Notes: generated by a model not told the origin, from the letters alone. A stretch of 32,000 nt of DNA from Candidatus Saccharimonadota bacterium (GCA_042852035.1 BAAFHK010000001.1:240001-272000), one strand, 5' to 3'. Shown: positions 109 through 13,821, numbered from the stretch's first letter. Made by a program: numbers and translations.

Positions 109-225
109 AGGAAGTGAGTGGTTATGAGTAAATAAATTATACTAAAATATTATATAGAGTCAATATATGATTTTTTCAAATCAGTATTCGATTTTTTTAA
201 AAATTTTACTAGAATATAACTACTT

Positions 226-6772: not shown

Positions 6773-6805
6773 AAAAAATTCCCTCCAAATCGGAGGGAAT
6801 TTTTA
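6773..6805. terminator. Bidirectional intrinsic terminator
   Basis: 10-bp stem aattccctcc / ggagggaatt with a 5-nt loop, flanked by A6 and T5 runs. It lies between convergent genes and overlaps the stop of the MBL gene. Confidence 0.75.
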
Positions 6806-7501
6806 TTCGAGTCCAAGTTTTAGATTTGCTGGAAGAGCGACATCGAGGAATTTTGGTGGAGCGAGATGAAGTGCATTCATTGTTTCAGTGAATGCTTCGA
6901 GCGTGGTCTCAGTTCGAATACGAGTATTGTATTGTTTCTCTTCGCCAATTGTTGACATCATATGCCCTGCATAATCGTGTCCTGGATAGACCTTTGTATC
7001 ATCAGGGAGTGTGTACATTTTGTCTTTGATTGAGTGGTACATCTTCTCGGGAGATCCTTGTTGGAAGTCAGTACGTCCCGTCTTTCGGATGAAGAGCACA
7101 TCCCCAGAAAAAAGCATATCTCCGATAACAAATGAGGTGCATCCATCCGTATGACCTGGAGTTGAGAGGGCTTTTATTTCTATATTCCCGACCGTAAGGA
7201 CTTCTCCATCATGAAGGAGGATATCAGGTTTTGCGACTGCAGCACCTTCTCCAAGGGCAATCTTGGCTCCTGTTTTCTCCCGGAGTACCCCACTTCATGT
7301 GATGTGATCGGCGTGGATATGGGTATCGAGGATATAACTGAGAGTGAGTCCGAGTTCGGTGAGGAGCTTCATATCTCGTTCGACTTGTTCACGGACAGGA
7401 TCAATAATGACCGCTTCTTGGGTCTCGCTATCCGCGACGATGTAAGTGTAAGTCCAGGTCTTCTCATCGAAGAGTTGGCGGAAGATGATAGTGTTGTTCA
7501 T
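6803..7501 (-). CDS. MBL-fold hydrolase, ETHE1/Blh-type persulfide dioxygenase-like
   Basis: 232 aa with the motifs DTHIHADHITG, STPGHTDGC, FSGDVLFIRKTGRTDFQQGS and VYPGHDY. There is one TGA=Gly at 7295-7297. I checked every codon across the 7117-7295 gap. Confidence 0.85.
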
Positions 7502-7504
7502 AAT

Positions 7505-7532
7505 TTGACAGTTTAAATAATATTGTTATATT
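7505..7532 (+). promoter_or_regulatory. Sigma70-like promoter facing the plus strand
   Basis: TTGACA (7505-7510), a 16-nt spacer, then TATATT (7527-7532). It points into the spacer between tauE and the MBL gene, both of which are on the minus strand. Confidence 0.4.
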
Positions 7533-7539
7533 TAATTTA

Positions 7540-7715
7540 TCACATACTCGCGGAGGTTAGATGGTCGAATCGATTCTCATCTGTGCTTTCGCGGCATGGG
7601 TGCTCGAAAGAGTGGTTTTCACGGTGCCCTCGAAGATTCGATGGGCAATCGCAACGGTGTTCATGACCATCATCTGGCATGTGACGCTCTACATGAGGGG
7701 GTAACCCCTTTTTTT
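7540..7715 (+). ncRNA. Candidate ~175-nt sRNA antisense to the tauE-MBL spacer (class unknown)
   Basis: It begins just downstream of the 7505-7532 promoter. It ends in a GGGG-UAA-CCCC hairpin followed by T7 (7697-7715), which acts as a terminator only in the plus orientation. The interior is GC-enriched, with a GCUC-GAAA-GAGU hairpin and a CAUGU...ACAUG hairpin. The alternative reading is a minus-strand His/Cys-rich ORF (see noticed_but_rejected). Confidence 0.35.
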
Positions 7716-7785: not shown

Positions 7786-8553
7786 TTAGAAAAAAAGTTC
7801 TTTCGAAAGCATAACGACAGCTGCCGTCATCGTGAAGTAACCAAATCCCTGAGTCAGATGTTCACTCGCGAGATATTTCTGGAGAAAAAGTCCGATAGTG
7901 AGTCCACCGACAGCAATGAATACGAGCGTCGCGAGAAATGCCGTGTCAACCTCAGGAGGAATCCTTCATGCAGCTCCTATAAGCATATTGAGTGAGATAA
8001 TGCTCATGGAGGTCGCGATAGCCTTTTTCCCTTCGAGTCACTCGAAGAACATGAGTGCTGGTACGATGAGGAATCCAACTCCAGCTCAAACGAGCCCAGT
8101 GATAAATCCAACAACTCCTCCCCTGAGTCAGGTGCGTAAAATTTTTCCATGGGTTGAATACGTATTTTTCGCACTACTTAGAGATTTTTTCTTACAGATC
8201 ATCGAGCAGCCAGAGGCAAACATGATGAAGGTGAAGAGGATGAGGAGGTAGGTGGATTTTTCGAGGATCCAGAGATGTTCTGGAAGGGTCGGGAGGATAT
8301 ATCTGCGAGTCAGGACTGTGATGATGATCGAGGGGATGGCGAAATGAAATCCTGTCTTCCATGAGATACGGTTGTGTGCGAGAAATGTCCCGATGACTGA
8401 GGTTGATCCAACGATGATCATGCTATAAAACGTCGCGAGGAGAGGATCAATATGAAATCCATATACGAGCGTAGGAATCGCGAAAATCCCTCCGCCACCT
8501 CCGACGAGTCAGATAATAATCCCGACAAGGATAAAGAGAAGAAGGGAAAACAT
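7786..8553 (-). CDS. TauE/SafE (DUF81) family sulfite/anion exporter
   Basis: 255 aa, polytopic. It starts MFSLLLFILVGIIIGLVGGGGGIFAIPTLVY and has the second-half repeat GGVVGFITGLVGAGVGFLIVPALMFF. The start codon overlaps the trx stop (TAATG at 8551-8555). The stop is TAA 7786-7788. Confidence 0.9.
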
Positions 8554-8864
8554 TAGAGGTATTTTTCGATTAAGGTCTTGAGTTCATCGACATATTTCAC
8601 TCCGACGACCTTCTCGACGGGTTTCCCGTCTTGGAAGAGAATCATTGTCGGGATTGATCTGATTTGGAAGGCATTTGGCACATTGGGTTCATTATCGACA
8701 TTGTGCTTCATGACTCGCATTTTGCCGTCCATCACCTTCGCGAGTTCTTCGAGGATGGGTCCCATCATCTGACAGGGTCCGCACCATGGTGCCCAGAAAT
8801 CGACGAGGACGACACCTTTCTCGATATCACGAGCGAAATTATTATCCGTAGAAGTGTATGTCAT
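8553..8864 (-). CDS. trxA: Thioredoxin
   Basis: 103 aa from the internal ATG at 8864: MTYTSTDNNFARDIEKGVVLVDFWAPWCGPCQMMGPILEE... It has the canonical WCGPC motif. The longer upstream extension in the ORF track is hydrophobic junk that overlaps the promoter. Confidence 0.9.
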   Translation of the reverse strand: MTYTSTDNNFARDIEKGVVLVDFWAPWCGPCQMMGPILEELAKVMDGKMRVMKHNVDNEPNVPNAFQIRSIPTMILFQDGKPVEKVVGVKYVDELKTLIEKYL

Positions 8865-8890: not shown

Positions 8891-8944
8891 ATATTATGAA
8901 AATGTAATATAAAGTCAAAAGAAAATATTATGAAAATGTAATAT
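8891..8944 (-). promoter_or_regulatory. Two tandem copies of the palindromic operator ATATTATGAAAATGTAATAT; the proximal copy is embedded in the trx promoter
   Basis: Identical 20-mers at 8891-8910 and 8925-8944, 34 bp apart. On the minus strand the proximal copy lies inside TTGACT (8918-8913), a 16-nt spacer, then TAATAT (8896-8891), 27 nt upstream of the trx ATG. Each 20-mer is an inverted repeat, ATATTA-N8-TAATAT. Confidence 0.6.
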
Positions 8945-8961
8945 ATAGTGTTTTGAATTAT

Positions 8962-8989
8962 AAAAAAATCCACTAAGATTTGGATTTTT
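8962..8989 (-). terminator. Intrinsic terminator of the ATPase-Toprim gene
   Basis: 9-bp stem aaaaatcca / tggattttt with an 8-nt loop that overlaps the TAG stop. A T run follows on the minus strand. Confidence 0.7.
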
Positions 8990-10781
8990 CAGGAGGATTA
9001 CATATGAGTTTTATTTTGTCGAAAAGAGGACTAAAGTTTTTAAAGTATTCTATACCAAGAGTATCAATAATGATTCTACTAAAATGAGTTTTATCTCATT
9101 TAAATGTAATGATTTCTCATCATGGTGAGCATACTTTATTGTAGTGCAAATTATCAAAATCATCATTAATTCAATAAAACATCAGTTCAATAGGGAATAT
9201 TGTTTTGGATCAGAAATGTTGTCCAGAAGTCATATCAAAAAGTTGTCTGTTGATTTTTTGGGACTTATTTATTGGTAATAATAGAGCATAAAATCATGCA
9301 TCCTTTGCTTTATTTGATAAGCAAGTTTCAGGATTGGTATCGTGAGTTATGAAGTCAAGTCAGTTCCACTGATTATATCACTCTTCATCAAAATCAAATA
9401 AACCAATGACACAACTATTTTGAAAACAATTTGCTTTTTCGAGTGAGTATTTAACATCTTTTGCATTCTGTCATTTTGTTGGTTTTGGAATATAAAACGG
9501 CATCTTGACTCAAGGGTAAAGTTTACTCCAAGATTTTTCAAGTATTTCTTTATCAGTAAATCATTCAACAAATAATAATGGTTTTTCTTTATTGCTTAGT
9601 ATTTCCAATGTTTTATTATTCTCTTGTGTTAGTTCTCGTATTCTAATTTCCTGATTTCAAATTTTATCAAAAAATTCCTTATTGGCTATTCACAGTTCTT
9701 TATATTGTGTCTTTTGTACAGGAAGTATTCTTGGTTCATATCACTTTCGAAATACTTCATAGTAATTTGTTCATTCAGGGGCTAATGATATTGTAGTTGG
9801 TGAGTGAGTTACAACTATTACCATAATTCAATTATCTACAAAATATTGATTCAATACCTTGTAAAACATTTCAGTCAAAGATGGATTAAATGTCGCATCA
9901 AATTCATCTAGTAATAACAGCTTTATGTTATTTTTATCACGAGAATTGAGTGTTGAAAATATTAATGAAGTAATGACCTTTTCTCAATCAGATAAATCTG
10001 TTACTTCCATTCATTTTTTTTCATCAATAGTCCCATTGATAATTGGGTATATCCTTGGTTGTTCGATAATTCATGTAATTGATGTGTAGTTATCTTTAAA
10101 TCTATAGTCTATTTTAAGAAGTTTAAATAATTCATTAAGTTTCTTCCACGGGGGGAATCATAATTCATTTTGCAAGTCTGAGTCGCTTATAAGGACTCCT
10201 TGATCATATTTTTCCAATTTTAATTTAGTAAATTTATTTGCATATATAAGAAATGAATCTGCTACTATATTTGAAAAAATATCATCAGATTCCCAGATAA
10301 ACTCATCATCAATAGCTCATATTATCTCTTCTCTTTGGAGCAATCCTCCCATAAATCTACTCTCTCAAAATTTTTGAGTGAGTATCTCCTTTGCTTTTTT
10401 TGAAGATTTTTGGAAACTTTTTAATATCTGATGATTTTCATTAAGAAGGACTCAGTTTGTGTAGTGGCTCCAAACACTATTTTTATGATTTATGAAATTT
10501 TGTGGTTCCGCATTTCAGATATTGTTTATTTGCTGTATATTACTTTGAAGTGTTCGAAATTGTATATTTTTATAATTTATCGGTATGCCATCAATGTCTA
10601 TGCTTGTGGCAATATTTTTATTTGGGTCTTCGGGATATTGTCACTTAATTATTTGCATTAATTGTGATTTTCCACTTCCATTTACTCAAGAAATAATTAT
10701 TAAATTTCACTCTAAGCTTATCTCAAATCAACTTGGAAAGGATTTGTATTCTTCAAATAGTCTAATATTTAAAACTCCCAT
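8973..10781 (-). CDS. Fused ABC-type (AAA15/21-like) ATPase + Toprim/DUF4435-like nuclease; OLD-family or fused PARIS (AriA-AriB)-like defence candidate
   Basis: A 602-aa single frame of 1809 nt with many TGA=Gly. Motifs: Walker A IISGVNGSGKSQL, ABC signature-like LSDGEK, Walker B KLLLLDEFDATFNP, and H-loop VVTHSP. The C-terminal Toprim motifs are PLLFVEGFTDKEIL and GLFDFDEEG. It is the most AT-rich coding stretch in the window. Confidence 0.8.
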
Positions 10782-10852
10782 ATAAATCTTAATTAATATT
10801 TATACAAATTATATTTAAAGAGACTTCTCTTTCCAGCTTTTCCGATTTTAAA

Positions 10853-11479
10853 TTATTCTTTTACCTCACACACCCCACCCACACAATTCTGATTCTTGTG
10901 TTCTTTCATCCACTTCCGACGCACGAGCCAGCCATAGATCCGACAGCCGACACAGTATCAGGCGACAGATTCGAGCCACATAAAGGTGATACAGAGGATG
11001 CATGCAAAAAGGGTAGGATTCAGTGGTGTGACGATGAGTTCATGATTTCGGAGATTTTCAGCAGTTGTCATCCAGATTTTTCCAACGGTCTCGGCCTGTG
11101 GTCCAGCAGTAGGGGCCACATAGCCTCCGAGGATGAGTATGCAGTAGAGAGCAAATACTGAGAGGAAGAGTCCGATGCTCCATGCAAATCGTTTTTGTAC
11201 CGCACCAACCCAGATTTCTTTGCTCTTTTCGAGATTCATACGTACAAGAGATCCGAAGATGCTCCACTTTGGTCCGATGAATATCTTCATGATGAACTCG
11301 AGTATGACGATGCTCACGAGGACGAGGGGGATAGAGTATTCAGCCTTGAAGAGGACGAGGAAAAATGATGTCATCGTGAAGAGGAGCATGATGCCTGTTG
11401 AGATGCGGATTTCTCGTTCATCGACGAAACCATATTTATCGTGTTTTTCAGAGATGCCGTGAATGAAGTGTCAGTACAT
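10853..11479 (-). CDS. DUF4395 family membrane protein
   Basis: 208 aa: MYGHFIHGISEKHDKYGFVDEREIRISTGIMLLF..., with several TM segments. The C-terminal GYCVGCRIYGWL motif is reached only by reading TGA 10958-10960 as Gly. The stop is TAA 10853-10855. Confidence 0.8.
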
Positions 11480-11537
11480 AGAAGAAAATTAAAACACCTA
11501 TAAGTGTAGGTGTTTTTTACGCAGATTCAAGAAAGAA

Positions 11538-11921
11538 TTACTGAACTATCTTTACATTTTGTATACTATCCATACCGCCAACATCCCTTATATTCGTATA
11601 TCATGCATTTTTGAGAATGTTGTATGCAATAGCAGATCGTCGTCCACTACGACAATAGAGGTTCACAGGAGTGTTTTTCGGAATAATAGAAAAATTTCCT
11701 GCTTCAATATCTCCGAGTTTTACGTGCATGGCTCACTCGATGTGGCCAGCTGTCCATTCGCTATCTTCGCGGACATCGACATAGAGTACTGATTCCTTTC
11801 ACTGAGTCTCCGAAGAGACGGAAGCACTTGGGAGAGAGCTACTCGATCAAGCTGGGGGAGGGGAGTTGGTACAACTTGCGAGAGAAAGAAGGGCACCAAA
11901 GAGAAGAATATATTTGAGCAT
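11538..11921 (-). CDS. Rhodanese-domain lipoprotein (sulfurtransferase)
   Basis: 127 aa. The signal peptide has a lipobox (MLKYILLFGALLSLAS-C). Rhodanese motifs are VLYVDVREDSEWTAGHIEGA and the active-site loop YCRSGRRS. Confidence 0.85.
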
Positions 11922-11982
11922 AAAAAGAAATTATGGAGAGAACGGATGTTCCCGAAAACCCACCCAATTAGGGTTGGAAATA

Positions 11983-12768
11983 TTAGTGATTCATTTGTCC
12001 CATGCCATTTCCTTGTCCACCACCACGACGATTTCCTGATCCTGTAGGTCCACGACCATCACCATTTCCTCAGCCTTGGGCTCCAAAGGTTTGGAGATTA
12101 TTGGACTTGAGGAGATCAGTCATTTTGTATTTGAGGGGGCCAGTGCTGTTTAGTTCGCTGGCCGTCATATAGCGAGCATAGTCGGTCGTGACAATATAAT
12201 TATTTTCTACCGCGAGACGAAGAAATGCTCGAAGGTGATTGAAACTGCCACCACCGATATTTTCGAACACTCGGCGGACATCCGTATCTTCGACGGTTTT
12301 ATATTCAGAGAGGAGATGATCTATGTCTCCAACTTCTACCATAACTCAAGCTTCGATAGCTTCTGTGAGGCTTGTATCAATCATCTTTTTCAGGGTTTCA
12401 TAGGTACCAGAGTAGCTGCCATAGTCAGTCGGACGATCGATACTACGAGCATCGAGGAGGCGTCCAACCTGTTCTGAATGTTTTTCTTCCGAACTCACGA
12501 TATTCATCACTTCGGTGAACTCGGGATATTTTGCCACCATGAGGGTGTAGATGTCTTCTGCGAGACGTTCTTCGGAATAGGCATCCTTGAGAATGTTTTC
12601 GACTATTTTTGGATCAGTAGTTTGAGGGTCGGGGGCTTGTTTTTGATTGTTTGAAGCCACTGTTTGTGTTGGAGTTTGAGTCGAACTTGGTACTTTATTT
12701 TCTATACTAGAAAGAGTACAAGAGCTCAGAATGCAAGCAGAGAGTGGGAGAATTAAGAGGGCATTCAT
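11983..12768 (-). CDS. DUF2202 (ferritin-like) lipoprotein with a Gly-rich C-terminal tail
   Basis: 261 aa. The lipobox is LPLSA-C. Motifs are EERLAEDIYTLMVAKY, SSEEKHSEQV and the diagnostic GGGSFNHLRAFLR. Two TGA=Gly join ORFs 12346-12768 and 12070-12342 and add the tail GGNGDGRGPTGSGNRRGGGQGNGMGQMNH. Confidence 0.85.
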
Positions 12769-12786
12769 ATGAAAAATGGTTAATGT

Positions 12787-12806
12787 ATATTACAAAATTG
12801 TAATAT
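12787..12806 (-). promoter_or_regulatory. Third copy of the operator (perfect 9-2-9 palindrome)
   Basis: ATATTACAA-AA-TTGTAATAT, located 19 nt upstream of the DUF2202 ATG. It has the same ATATTA...TAATAT arms as the trx and arsR sites. Confidence 0.55.
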
Positions 12807-12847
12807 AATAACGAGTATAACATCTCAAAGTAAGAATTCGGAAAGAA

Positions 12848-13099
12848 TTATGCAATCCCCAGCTTTCCTACAAGTTCACCCTTTTCGTGCAGAGCATTGA
12901 TGCTATCGAATCCTCCGAGACACTCATCAGAGACAAATATCTGAGGAACGGTTCTCATGCCAGATTTTTTTGCTATAGCAATCATGGTATCCATGTCATG
13001 TGTGACATCTATTTCGTCATAGGTTGCACCAAGGGAGGAGAGGAGATTTTTTGCTTTGACACAATAGGGGCAATAATCTTTAGTATAGATGGTAATCAT
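12848..13099 (-). CDS. grxC: Glutaredoxin
   Basis: 83 aa, intact in the ORF track: MITIYTKDYCPYCVKAK ... TVPQIFV ... GGFD. It has the CPYC active site. Confidence 0.9.
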   Translation of the reverse strand: MITIYTKDYCPYCVKAKNLLSSLGATYDEIDVTHDMDTMIAIAKKSGMRTVPQIFVSDECLGGFDSINALHEKGELVGKLGIA

Positions 13100-13117
13100 A
13101 TCAGAGAGGTAAGAATA

Positions 13118-13462
13118 TTAAAAGAGACCAAAAAATCATTTTTTCTCACTTCGCACAACCTTATCTGCGAAATCATTTTCTATGGCATTCATGCCACCAG
13201 AAAGGTTGTATCCCTTGATGCCTTCACCTTCTGCAAACATTGTTGCTTGAGCAGATCTTCCGCCACTTCGGCAAATAAATACAACCTTTTTTGACTTATC
13301 GATTTCACTCATGCGAACGGGAAGGATGTGAAGGGGGATATTTTTTGCTTCTTTGAGGCGAGCTTCATCATATTCACCGGTTCCACGTACATCAATGAGT
13401 TCGATGGTCTCTGGTGCGGTTGTGAGTGATTCCATGAGTTCCTTGGCAGAGAGAGTATTCAT
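13118..13462 (-). CDS. Single-domain rhodanese (sulfurtransferase)
   Basis: 114 aa with the active-site loop FICRSGGRS. TGA 13136-13138 is read through for 5 codons (GFFGLF) to TAA 13118-13120. Confidence 0.9.
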
Positions 13463-13476
13463 AAATAGAGAGTATA

Positions 13477-13767
13477 TTAAAGGCTACAAAAGTTTTTTTC
13501 GAGGTCGTGGATGAGGTTTCGTACTCGTATATCTTTAAGTGAATAGAAGACGAACTGTCATTTTTTCTCACTTATGAGGAGTCATTCTTTCTCAAGTTTC
13601 CCGAGAAATTGTGAGAGTTGAGACTGAGAAATAGTACAATCTTTCTCTAGTTCCCCAACAGATTTTGGTCCACTTAGAAGACGACAACAGAGGAGGAGTC
13701 GTTTTGGGTGGGCAATAAGCTTCAAGATATGAGCAACTTCATCTGCTCGTTCCGAGAGATTTTTCAT
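13477..13767 (-). CDS. ArsR/SmtB-family repressor, SqrR/BigR-like (candidate persulfide sensor)
   Basis: 96 aa with a winged HTH (HPKRLLLCCRLLSGPKSVGELEKDCTISQSQLSQFLGKLEKEGLL). The Cys in helix 2 (C27/C28) and the Cys near the C-terminus (C94) are 66 residues apart (C28 to C94). Two TGA=Gly. The stop is TAA 13477-13479. Confidence 0.8.
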
Positions 13768-13793
13768 ATTCGAAAAAAGTAATATGTGTATTT

Positions 13794-13821
13794 ATATTAT
13801 AAAAATGTAATATAATGTCAA
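13794..13821 (-). promoter_or_regulatory. arsR promoter with embedded operator (fourth copy)
   Basis: The 20-mer ATATTATAAAAATGTAATAT is at 13794-13813. On the minus strand it reads TTGACA (13821-13816), a 16-nt spacer, then TAATAT (13799-13794), 27 nt upstream of the arsR ATG. That offset equals the one at trx. The 32-nt block differs from the trx proximal block at 2 positions by my alignment. Confidence 0.6.

What the first reader, a model, noticed from the sequence alone, without database searches (positions are those of the whole stretch)
8891..13821. One palindromic operator (ATATTA-N8-TAATAT) built into the -10/spacer of three promoters defines a small regulon
There are four copies:
- 8891-8910 and 8925-8944: identical, 34 bp apart, upstream of trx-tauE-MBL
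- 12787-12806: a perfect 9-2-9 palindrome, upstream of DUF2202-rhodanese-DUF4395
- 13794-13813: upstream of arsR-rhodanese-grx

At trx and arsR the site lies at the same offset, 27 nt from the ATG. In both cases it sits inside TTGAC(T/A)-16-TAATAT, so a bound repressor would occlude RNA polymerase. The 32-nt blocks at trx and arsR differ at only two positions by my alignment. The only regulator gene in the cluster is the ArsR-family protein, and its own promoter carries the site. That implies autoregulation.
Basis: partly seen in the sequence, partly recalled or inferred. Interest (0 to 1): 0.65.

Follow-up and report, generated by a model that had tools for sequence, protein, structure and literature searches.

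The report
Sulfide-stress repressor operator in Gracilibacteria
The repeated palindrome is very probably the DNA site where a BigR/SqrR-type sulfur-stress repressor switches off its own gene and two neighbouring sulfur-detoxification operons in a tiny uncultured bacterium; this control system is already known from other bacteria and is here seen in a new lineage with a slightly altered site.

Summary
Four exact ATATTA-N8-TAATAT sites lie at the stated coordinates, where about 0.02 are expected by composition. A fifth, weaker site (13766-13785) overlaps the arsR start codon.

The window uses genetic code 25 (TGA = Gly) and comes from a Gracilibacteria-type Patescibacteria MAG. All cluster genes are on the minus strand and are complete only under that code.

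The regulator is a BigR/SqrR-type ArsR protein:
- Best solved-structure matches are BigR and SqrR.
- The modelled fold has TM 0.91 to BigR.
- Both sensing cysteines are conserved.

The site has the same 4-N8-4 geometry as the published SqrR box. It reads ATTA-N8-TAAT where SqrR has ATTC-N8-GAAT.

I retrieved 86 loci by protein similarity alone. After removing redundancy, 21 of 36 regulator clusters have an exact site within 150 nt upstream of arsR. Only 8 other exact sites occur in 224 kb, all at the heads of operons of the same regulon. All 11 TGA-recoded relatives keep the layout TTGAC(A/T)-2 nt-operator, with the proximal half-site serving as the -10.

This is a new member of a known kind and moderately interesting. 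The inducer and actual binding remain untested.

The parts
13794..13813 (.). arsR operator O1. It overlaps the spacer and supplies the -10 (TAATAT, 13794-13799 on the minus strand).
   Evidence: Exact site. Scores 28.8 bits with the matrix built from foreign sites. The 33-nt promoter/operator block is 32/33 identical to that of L001, whose regulator is only 57% identical.
13816..13821 (-). -35 hexamer TTGACA of the arsR promoter, 2 nt upstream of O1.
   Evidence: Promoter scan gives TTGACA-16-TAATAT, 10 of 12. TTGAC(A/T)-2 nt-operator is conserved in all TGA-recoded relatives.
13766..13785 (.). arsR operator O2, a weaker site with one mismatch. It overlaps the 5' UTR and the start codon, 28 bp from O1.
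   Evidence: 14.0 bits. A second operator 24-28 bp downstream of O1 and reaching the ATG is present in L007, L012-15, L021, L039, L050 and L057.
13477..13767 (-). arsR: a 96-aa BigR/SqrR-type ArsR-family repressor with two in-frame TGA = Gly codons.
   Evidence: Pfam HTH_5. Solved-structure matches BigR 2e-17 and SqrR 1.7e-16, with both Cys aligned. AF2 pLDDT 89.9, Foldseek BigR TM 0.91.
13118..13462 (-). Single-domain rhodanese (sulfurtransferase), second gene of the arsR operon.
   Evidence: Pfam Rhodanese 5e-15. arsR-rhodanese-grx order recurs in L009, L010, L021 and L039.
12848..13099 (-). Glutaredoxin, third gene of the arsR operon.
   Evidence: Pfam Glutaredoxin 8e-21.
12787..12806 (.). 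Operator at the DUF2202 operon: a perfect 9-2-9 palindrome, 18 nt before the ATG, with no good -35.
   Evidence: 28.7 bits. An exact site occupies the same position between grx and DUF2202 in L010 and after grx in L009.
11983..12768 (-). DUF2202 ferritin-like protein with a lipoprotein-type signal peptide.
   Evidence: Pfam DUF2202 4e-15 and Rubrerythrin 5e-4. Sits in the regulon in L001, L010 and L012-15.
11538..11921 (-). Rhodanese with a lipoprotein-type signal peptide (LASC).
   Evidence: Pfam Rhodanese 3e-15; sequence.
10853..11479 (-). DUF4395 membrane protein with a Cys-rich C-terminus. It is preceded by a hairpin at 11491-11516.
   Evidence: Pfam DUF4395 3e-20. Hairpin. Sits in the regulon in L010 and L039.
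8925..8944 (.). Distal trx operator, 34 bp upstream of the proximal one and upstream of the -35.
   Evidence: Exact site, identical to the proximal site. 26.4 bits.
8891..8910 (.). Proximal trx operator. It overlaps the spacer and supplies the -10 (8891-8896); the -35 TTGACT is at 8913-8918.
   Evidence: TTGACT-16-TAATAT. 28.4 bits.
8553..8864 (-). Thioredoxin (WCGPC).
   Evidence: Pfam Thioredoxin 2e-28.
7786..8553 (-). TauE/SafE-type sulfite exporter.
   Evidence: Pfam TauE 7e-30.
6803..7501 (-). ETHE1-type persulfide dioxygenase, followed by a strong terminator at 6774-6804. Co-transcription with trx-tauE is inferred, not certain.
   Evidence: Solved-structure matches 4ysb 3e-69, 5ve3 1e-67, human ETHE1 4chl 1e-61. 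Terminator. trx-tauE-PDO are contiguous in L012, L014 and L015.

Best explanation
The 20-bp palindrome ATATTA(Y)-N6-(R)TAATAT is the operator of the 96-aa ArsR-family repressor encoded at 13477-13767. That protein belongs to the BigR/SqrR/YgaV group of thiol-based sensors of reactive sulfur species.

Proposed mechanism:
- In the reduced state, a repressor dimer binds the two ATTA/TAAT half-sites, which are 12 bp centre to centre, as in SqrR.
- At arsR and trx, the promoter-proximal half-site is itself the -10 hexamer and the other half fills the spacer 2 nt after the -35. Binding therefore excludes RNA polymerase.
- Auxiliary operators would tighten repression. One overlaps the arsR 5' UTR and start codon; the other lies 34 bp upstream at trx.
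- When sulfide-derived persulfide or polysulfide accumulates, Cys28 and Cys94 are cross-linked (di- to tetrasulfide) and the protein leaves the DNA.

Three transcription units are then derepressed:
- arsR-rhodanese-glutaredoxin
- DUF2202-rhodanese-DUF4395, a probable extracytoplasmic/membrane module
- thioredoxin-TauE sulfite exporter, probably with the persulfide dioxygenase

Together these would transfer, oxidise, reduce and export sulfane sulfur.

What is shown: the sites, their promoter geometry, their conservation and specificity, the regulator's family, and the gene functions by homology.

What is inferred: binding, repression, the inducer, and co-transcription of the dioxygenase.
For: - Sites are real and far above chance. 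A matrix built from foreign sites finds only these in the 32 kb.
- The regulator's best solved-structure matches are BigR and SqrR, with Cys28 and Cys94 aligned to BigR C42/C108 and SqrR C41/C107.
- Across 36 clade members, C94 is invariant, C28 is at least 90% conserved and the recognition helix is invariant.
- The AF2 model matches BigR and SqrR at TM 0.90-0.91.
- The published SqrR operator core is ATTC-N8-GAAT, with contacts from R60, Q61 and Q66. YgaV binds a similar box over its own promoter.
- In loci found by protein alone, 21 of 36 non-redundant clusters have an exact site within 150 nt upstream of arsR. Only 8 further exact sites occur in 223,741 nt, all at the heads of operons that contain arsR or encode sulfur or RND genes.
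- The site persists in contigs of 51-64% GC.
- All 11 TGA-recoded clusters keep TTGAC(A/T)-2 nt-operator.
- L001 puts arsR-DUF2202-trx-rhodanese-grx behind one operator.
- Distant Arg-helix homologs carry ATATTC-N8-GAATAT at the same place.
- The regulon genes match known BigR/PigS/CstR regulons: persulfide dioxygenase, rhodanese, TauE, YeeE/YedE.
Against: - No binding or expression data exist for this protein or any member of its clade.
- The DUF2202 site lacks a recognisable -35, so it may act as a roadblock or on a weak promoter rather than by polymerase exclusion.
- The dioxygenase gene has no site of its own. It is separated from tauE by a gap containing an oppositely oriented promoter, small ORF and terminator.
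- Thioredoxin and glutaredoxin in the regulon would also fit a general disulfide-stress signal.
- 15 of 36 clusters lack an exact site immediately upstream of arsR. In five of them an exact or one-mismatch site lies further upstream at the operon head (L010 also has a one-mismatch site directly upstream of arsR); the other ten are unresolved because contigs are short or the operon head was not located.
- The rest of the genome (a 750-kb contig) could not be scanned.
Confidence: 0.85

Rival explanations
1. The same repressor and operator are at work, but the physiological signal is general thiol oxidation (disulfide or peroxide stress) or sulfite, rather than persulfide or polysulfide. The regulon would then be mainly a thiol-redox repair set.
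For: - Thioredoxin and glutaredoxin are regulon members here and in relatives.
- BigR was first described as switched by a Cys42-Cys108 disulfide, and NCBI names it 'sulfite-sensing'.
- A third, clade-invariant cysteine (C44) next to the recognition helix is absent from BigR and SqrR, so the chemistry could differ.
Against: - The regulon is dominated by sulfane-sulfur enzymes and transporters: persulfide dioxygenase, three rhodaneses here, TauE, and YeeE/YedE in relatives.
- No peroxidase, catalase or thioredoxin reductase is included.
- BigR and SqrR respond to sulfide or polysulfide in vivo.
Confidence: 0.1
2. The palindrome is a promoter-architecture element, for example a -10-like hexamer plus an AT-rich spacer or UP-like repeat, or it is the site of another, unlinked regulator. 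The ArsR protein would not bind it.
For: - The downstream half-site is a plausible -10.
- The genome is AT-rich.
- The generic promoter scan is not enriched over shuffles (27 found against 22 expected), so promoter-like strings are common.
Against: - The upstream half-site is conserved as the exact reverse complement, which a polymerase element would not need.
- The site stays intact in 51-64% GC contigs.
- It tracks the arsR gene in 21 of 36 independent clusters and is otherwise nearly absent.
- arsR is the only regulator common to these loci.
- The half-site spacing equals that of the SqrR operator.
- The inner base changes together with the regulator's recognition helix.
- Second copies lie downstream of the -10, over the start codon, where a promoter element makes no sense.
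Confidence: 0.04

Closest known systems
SqrR of Rhodobacter capsulatus (ArsR-family persulfide sensor; PDB 6o8k-6o8o)
   Same: - Fold (TM 0.90) and 39% identity.
- Both sensing cysteines.
- Q61 and Q66 equivalents in the recognition helix.
- Operator with two 4-bp half-sites separated by 8 bp.
- A repressor of sulfide-responsive genes.
   Different: - Half-site is ATTA/TAAT instead of ATTC/GAAT.
- Ser replaces the base-contacting Arg60.
- An extra invariant Cys44.
- The regulon has no sulfide:quinone reductase in the window and adds thioredoxin, glutaredoxin, DUF2202 and DUF4395.
- The host is a code-25 Patescibacterium.
BigR of Xylella fastidiosa / Agrobacterium / Rhizobium (blh-bigR operon; PDB 3pqj)
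   Same: - Best sequence and fold match (2e-17, TM 0.91).
- The Cys pair.
- Autoregulated operon with persulfide dioxygenase, sulfurtransferase and TauE (YeeE/YedE also, in relatives).
- AT-rich box at the core promoter.
   Different: - In BigR operons the regulator is the second gene of one operon and the dioxygenase is fused to a DUF442 sulfurtransferase. Here there are three separate operator-bearing promoters and stand-alone rhodaneses.
- The recognition helix differs (VHQPHLSQHL or IGQPTLSQQL against ISQSQLSQFL).
- I found no clean N8 palindrome in three Rhizobiaceae blh promoters.
- The original BigR-box paper could not be read.
YgaV of Escherichia coli (ygaVP operon) and PigS of Serratia
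   Same: - Same subfamily (E 2.6e-14).
- An autoregulated repressor bound over its own promoter, controlling a rhodanese (ygaP) or yeeE/yedE/pdo genes.
- A YgaP-like rhodanese heads the operon in L034.
   Different: - Different operator sequence.
- YgaV also binds haem and controls respiratory genes.
- There is no evidence for either property here.
CstR of Staphylococcus aureus (CsoR-family persulfide sensor; cst operon)
   Same: It works alike: a dithiol repressor released by persulfide, controlling tauE, rhodanese-type sulfurtransferases and a persulfide dioxygenase (abstract listed; family knowledge).
   Different: It has an unrelated protein fold (a CsoR four-helix bundle, not a winged helix) and an unrelated operator, so it is an analogue rather than a relative.

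Membership tests
BigR/SqrR/YgaV subfamily of ArsR/SmtB repressors (reactive-sulfur sensors) | ArsR/SmtB winged-helix fold (alpha1-5 with a beta hairpin) | tested here: met
   Pfam HTH_5. AF2 pLDDT 89.9 with H-H-H-H-E-E-H topology. Foldseek top hits are BigR at TM 0.91 and SqrR at TM 0.90.
BigR/SqrR/YgaV subfamily of ArsR/SmtB repressors (reactive-sulfur sensors) | Closer to BigR/SqrR/YgaV/HlyU than to metal- or arsenic-sensing ArsR proteins | tested here: met
   BigR 2e-17, SqrR 1.7e-16, YgaV 2.6e-14 and HlyU 1e-13, against NmtR 1e-8 and SmtB/CzrA 1e-5.
BigR/SqrR/YgaV subfamily of ArsR/SmtB repressors (reactive-sulfur sensors) | Conserved sensing cysteine pair: alpha2 Cys (BigR C42 / SqrR C41) and C-terminal alpha5 Cys (C108 / C107) | tested here: met
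   C28 and C94 align to these residues. In 36 clade members C94 is invariant and C28 is at least 90% conserved.
BigR/SqrR/YgaV subfamily of ArsR/SmtB repressors (reactive-sulfur sensors) | Operator is an inverted repeat of two 4-bp half-sites 8 bp apart (SqrR: ATTC-N8-GAAT) | tested here: inconclusive
   The geometry is met (ATTA-N8-TAAT inside ATATTA-N8-TAATAT). The inner base differs (A/T for C/G). Arg-helix homologs in this data set carry ATATTC-N8-GAATAT. Binding was not tested.
BigR/SqrR/YgaV subfamily of ArsR/SmtB repressors (reactive-sulfur sensors) | Operator overlaps the core promoter of the regulator's own operon (autorepression) | tested here: met
   Met by sequence only. O1 spans the spacer and the -10, and O2 spans the 5' UTR and the ATG, at arsR. 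The layout is conserved in 11 of 11 TGA-recoded clusters.
BigR/SqrR/YgaV subfamily of ArsR/SmtB repressors (reactive-sulfur sensors) | Regulon encodes sulfide/persulfide detoxification (persulfide dioxygenase, sulfurtransferase, TauE or YeeE/YedE transporters) | tested here: met
   ETHE1-type dioxygenase, three rhodaneses and TauE. YeeE/YedE pairs in relatives. Compare the annotated blh-bigR-yeeE-yedE-tauE operon.
BigR/SqrR/YgaV subfamily of ArsR/SmtB repressors (reactive-sulfur sensors) | DNA binding abolished by persulfide/polysulfide through a di- to tetrasulfide link between the two cysteines | not testable with these tools
   This needs purified protein, EMSA or anisotropy with and without GSSH or polysulfide, and mass spectrometry.
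Metal- or metalloid-sensing ArsR/SmtB (ArsR, SmtB, CzrA, CadC, NmtR) | Alpha3 CXC(D) arsenite site, or alpha3N / alpha5 metal-ligand sets | tested here: not met
   - There is no CXC in alpha3. The single C44 lies at the end of alpha3, in ELEKDC.
- The alpha5 sequence DIRVRNLIHDLEKNFCSL lacks the DxHx10HxxE/H ligand pattern, judged by inspection against family knowledge.
- Sequence scores to SmtB and CzrA are about 12 orders of magnitude weaker than to BigR.

The most novel reading that the evidence does not exclude
The clade with the invariant recognition helix C-x-I-S-Q-S-Q-L-S-Q-F-L may be a distinct specificity class within the persulfide-sensing ArsR proteins.

- Replacing the base-contacting Arg (SqrR R60) with Ser would have re-targeted the protein from ATTC-N8-GAAT to ATTA-N8-TAAT.
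- A clade-invariant third cysteine (C44), placed directly before the recognition helix, may give a sensing chemistry not seen in BigR or SqrR, for example direct persulfidation at the DNA-binding surface.
- If so, this would be the first transcriptional regulon defined for a code-25 CPR bacterium.
- It would also link DUF2202, DUF4395 and, in relatives, RND exporters to reactive-sulfur stress.
Probability: 0.2. Interest if true: 0.6.

Novelty: new member of a known kind. Interest (0 to 1): 0.4.

Why it matters
Transcriptional regulation in Candidate Phyla Radiation bacteria is almost unexplored, because none of these organisms is genetically tractable. Here a regulator, its operator, the promoter layout and its roughly ten-gene regulon can be read directly from sequence and checked across many metagenomes.

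This has three uses:
- It gives a concrete, testable handle on how a reduced-genome, probably host-dependent bacterium copes with sulfide. That matters because persulfide dioxygenase and rhodanese genes in CPR were only recently noticed and were interpreted as energy metabolism (PMC10811913). Control by a BigR/SqrR-type stress sensor argues for detoxification instead.
- It offers a natural operator-specificity pair (Arg with TTC/GAA, Ser with TTA/TAA) for the current work on how ArsR proteins diversify DNA recognition.
- It assigns a sulfur-stress context to two domains of unknown function, DUF2202 and DUF4395.

It does not reveal a new kind of mechanism.

Tried and rejected
- Table-11 ORF calls gave fragmented genes. 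I replaced them with table 25.
- The original BigR-box paper (J Bacteriol 2007) is not held by DOI or by the PMC id I guessed. A full-text search for 'BigR box' found nothing. The A. baumannii BigR paper gives no operator sequence, and the Cupriavidus SoxR paper gives none in its text.
- To get BigR-proper operators I fetched Rhizobium and Sinorhizobium blh-bigR loci. Three of the four promoters share an AT-rich ATA(T/C)ATTATATT plus TATAAT, but I could not resolve a clean N8 palindrome. The Arg-to-Ser specificity idea therefore rests only on the two clades sampled here. For L090 the blh start was guessed and the region retrieved was uninformative.
- Rfam and tRNA scans of the window found nothing.
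- The 47-aa ORF in the tauE/PDO gap has no homolog in the 86 loci then held.
- The one-mismatch or weak hits at 134-166 precede ispG and score below 10 bits, so I treat them as chance. The hit at 10780-10799 did not rank among the matrix's top 20 window hits (below 0 bits), and I treat it as chance too.
- The generic promoter scan is not enriched over shuffles, so it serves only to show that the arsR and trx promoters are among the better matches.
- The genome contigs and metagenome-contig scans were each spent on the protein search, so no collection-wide DNA-pattern scan was possible.

Full report
**1. The observation**

Allowing one mismatch gives 7 hits, against 0.35 expected from dinucleotide-preserving shuffles. 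Base composition alone predicts 0.02 exact sites in the 32 kb.

The finer claims also hold.
- The two trx sites are identical and 34 bp apart.
- 12787-12806 is a perfect 9-2-9 palindrome.
- At trx and arsR the site ends 26 nt before the ATG and lies inside TTGACT-16-TAATAT and TTGACA-16-TAATAT. The generic promoter scan finds both independently.
- The trx and arsR promoter blocks differ at two positions.

**2. Genetic code and source**

Standard-code ORF calling breaks nearly every gene of the cluster. The ArsR ORF, for example, stops at residue 61 in mid-domain. Reading TGA as a sense codon restores full-length genes, each with a clean Pfam domain.

The TGA codons fall on conserved glycines, for example the G of the dioxygenase HADHITG motif and G62/G70 of the regulator, which align to Gly in SqrR and BigR. 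In several database homologs the same positions appear as W, which fits a code-4 translation of TGA.

The exact regulator sequence is on record from a 'Candidatus Altimarinota' MAG, a phylum NCBI places in the Patescibacteria group, on a 750-kb contig. The closest genome hit is a Candidatus Gracilibacteria MAG. So the window uses genetic code 25.

All cluster genes lie on the minus strand:
- arsR (13477-13767), rhodanese (13118-13462), glutaredoxin (12848-13099)
- DUF2202 (11983-12768), lipoprotein rhodanese (11538-11921), DUF4395 (10853-11479)
- thioredoxin (8553-8864), TauE (7786-8553), MBL-fold protein (6803-7501)

The MBL-fold protein is an ETHE1-type persulfide dioxygenase, with E values of 1e-61 to 3e-69 against solved dioxygenases.

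**3. The regulator**

Among solved structures it matches BigR (2e-17), SqrR (1.7e-16), YgaV and HlyU far better than the metal sensors. Cys28 and Cys94 align with the sensing pairs BigR C42/C108 and SqrR C41/C107. An AlphaFold model (pLDDT 89.9) superposes on BigR and SqrR at TM 0.90-0.91.

In 36 clade members the recognition helix C-x-ISQSQLSQFL is invariant. C94 is invariant and C28 nearly so. A third cysteine, C44, is also invariant.

**4. The site compared with known operators**

The SqrR operator core is ATTC-N8-GAAT. A dimer reads it through R60, Q61 and Q66 (bioRxiv 10.64898/2026.05.15.721447). YgaV protects a similar box over its own promoter (PMC9774250).

The window's site contains ATTA-N8-TAAT, which has the same geometry and differs at the inner base. 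Q61 and Q66 are conserved here as Q48 and Q53. R60 is replaced by S47.

**5. Comparative test**

I retrieved loci by protein similarity only: 6 from genomes and 80 from metagenomes. I then asked whether the window's motif is present in them.

- In L001 the regulator is 57% identical. Its 33-nt promoter/operator block is 32/33 identical to the window's while the flanks are unrelated. One operator there precedes a single operon, arsR-DUF2202-trx-rhodanese-grx.
- After collapsing to 36 regulator clusters at 90% identity, 21 have an exact site within 150 nt upstream of arsR. This includes contigs of 51-64% GC, where such a sequence is very improbable by chance.
- In the remaining 223,741 nt there are only 8 exact sites. 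Each sits at the head of an operon that contains arsR further down (L018, L023, L034, L043) or that encodes DUF2202-DUF4395 or an RND transporter (L009, L010).
- Seventeen loci (11 clusters) read TGA as sense, like the window. All 11 carry the site upstream of arsR, 10 exact and 1 with one mismatch, in the same layout: cTTTTGAC(A/T), 2 nt, then the operator, with TAATAT serving as the -10.
- Most of them have a second operator 24-28 bp downstream that reaches the start codon. The window has this too, at 13766-13785, with one mismatch and a score of 14.0 bits.
- A weight matrix built only from foreign sites scores the four window sites at 26-29 bits and nothing else in the 32 kb above 14. The null maximum averages 5.3, with a largest value of 18.6.

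It is not met.

**6. Covariation**

Homologs at 33-39% identity from GC-rich contigs have Arg at the R60 position (helix R-E-A-A-V-S-Q-Q-L). They carry ATATTC-N8-GAATAT at the corresponding promoter position. The Ser-helix clade always has TTA/TAA.

This segregation is clean, but it reflects two clades and therefore possibly a single evolutionary event. BigR-proper promoters from Rhizobiaceae plasmids (helix VHQPHLSQHL) have a different AT-rich element that I could not resolve into an N8 palindrome. The Arg-to-Ser explanation is an inference.

**7. Mechanism**

The best-supported reading is classical promoter occlusion by a thiol-switch repressor, with autoregulation, as in BigR, SqrR and YgaV.

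The regulon matches known reactive-sulfur regulons: persulfide dioxygenase, three rhodaneses, a TauE sulfite exporter, and YeeE/YedE pairs and RND exporters in relatives. For comparison, see the annotated blh-bigR-yeeE-yedE-tauE operon and the BigR regulon in A. baumannii.

Thioredoxin, glutaredoxin, DUF2202 and DUF4395 are less usual members. I found no literature linking the two DUFs to sulfur.

Three uncertainties remain.
- The DUF2202 site lacks a -35. The same is true in L009 and only weakly otherwise in L010.
- The dioxygenase has no site of its own. It lies beyond a 284-nt gap that contains a plus-strand promoter, a 47-codon ORF and a terminator.
- The inducer is inferred from homology.

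**8. Novelty and verdict**

Regulator family, operator geometry, autorepression and regulon type are all established. New here are:
- the lineage, a code-25 Patescibacterium. Persulfide dioxygenase and rhodanese in CPR were reported only in 2024, without any regulatory analysis (PMC10811913).
- the A/T variant of the half-site, paired with a distinct invariant helix
- the extra invariant cysteine
- the added regulon members

I rate the finding a new member of a known kind, with moderate interest.

Noticed in passing
whole window (e.g. 7295-7297, 13582-13584, 13558-13560): The window uses genetic code 25. In-frame TGA codons fall at conserved glycines, and standard-code ORF calls are fragmented. 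The source is a Candidatus Altimarinota / Gracilibacteria-type MAG.
   Followed up: yes
window 8973-10781 (minus strand): A 602-aa ATPase-Toprim protein resembling AriA/AriB (PARIS), GajA and OLD-type defence proteins (PADLOC AriAB 5.6e-14). It sits on a low-GC (28-31%) island that separates the trx operon from the DUF4395 operon, so it is probably a horizontally acquired insertion.
   Followed up: partly
window 7505-7711 (plus strand): A near-consensus promoter (TTGACA-16-TATATT with TG), a GGAGG ribosome-binding site, a 47-codon hydrophobic ORF (7562-7705) and a terminator (7695-7711). They lie antisense in the gap between tauE and the persulfide dioxygenase. The ORF has no homolog in the 86 related loci.
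   Followed up: partly
window 13766-13785: A fifth operator-like site with one mismatch (ATATTCGAAAAAAGTAATAT) overlaps the arsR start codon, 28 bp from the main arsR site. The same second operator is present in most TGA-recoded relatives.
   Followed up: yes
window 13636-13638 (codon for Cys44 of the regulator); alignment A2: A third cysteine, directly before the recognition helix, is invariant in all 36 clade members. BigR and SqrR have Gly or Leu at that position.
   Followed up: partly
window 8964-8989 and 11491-11516: A hairpin with a T-run ends the defence-type gene about 20 bp upstream of the distal trx operator, which insulates the trx promoter. A second hairpin lies between the lipoprotein rhodanese and DUF4395 and may attenuate that operon.
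   Followed up: no
L010 672-4093; L043 826-5751; L034 890-6218: In relatives the same operator, often as a tandem pair, heads operons for RND/MMPL-type transporters. In L034 and L043 these come with TolC- or porin-like outer-membrane proteins. This suggests efflux is part of the regulon in some lineages.
   Followed up: partly
L012 6291-7142; L057 6296-7125; L016 562-1388; L022 1279-2115; L026 1165-2018: Paired YeeE/YedE-type half-transporters (GCTSGHG(V/I)CGISR motif) lie between arsR and rhodanese or dioxygenase in relatives. The window's cluster has none.
   Followed up: partly
window 134-166, upstream of ispG (226-1452): Two overlapping weak motif matches (9.9 and 6.7 bits) lie about 60 nt upstream of the Fe-S enzyme gene ispG. 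They sit above the average null maximum (5.3) but well within its range (largest 18.6), so they are probably chance.
   Followed up: partly
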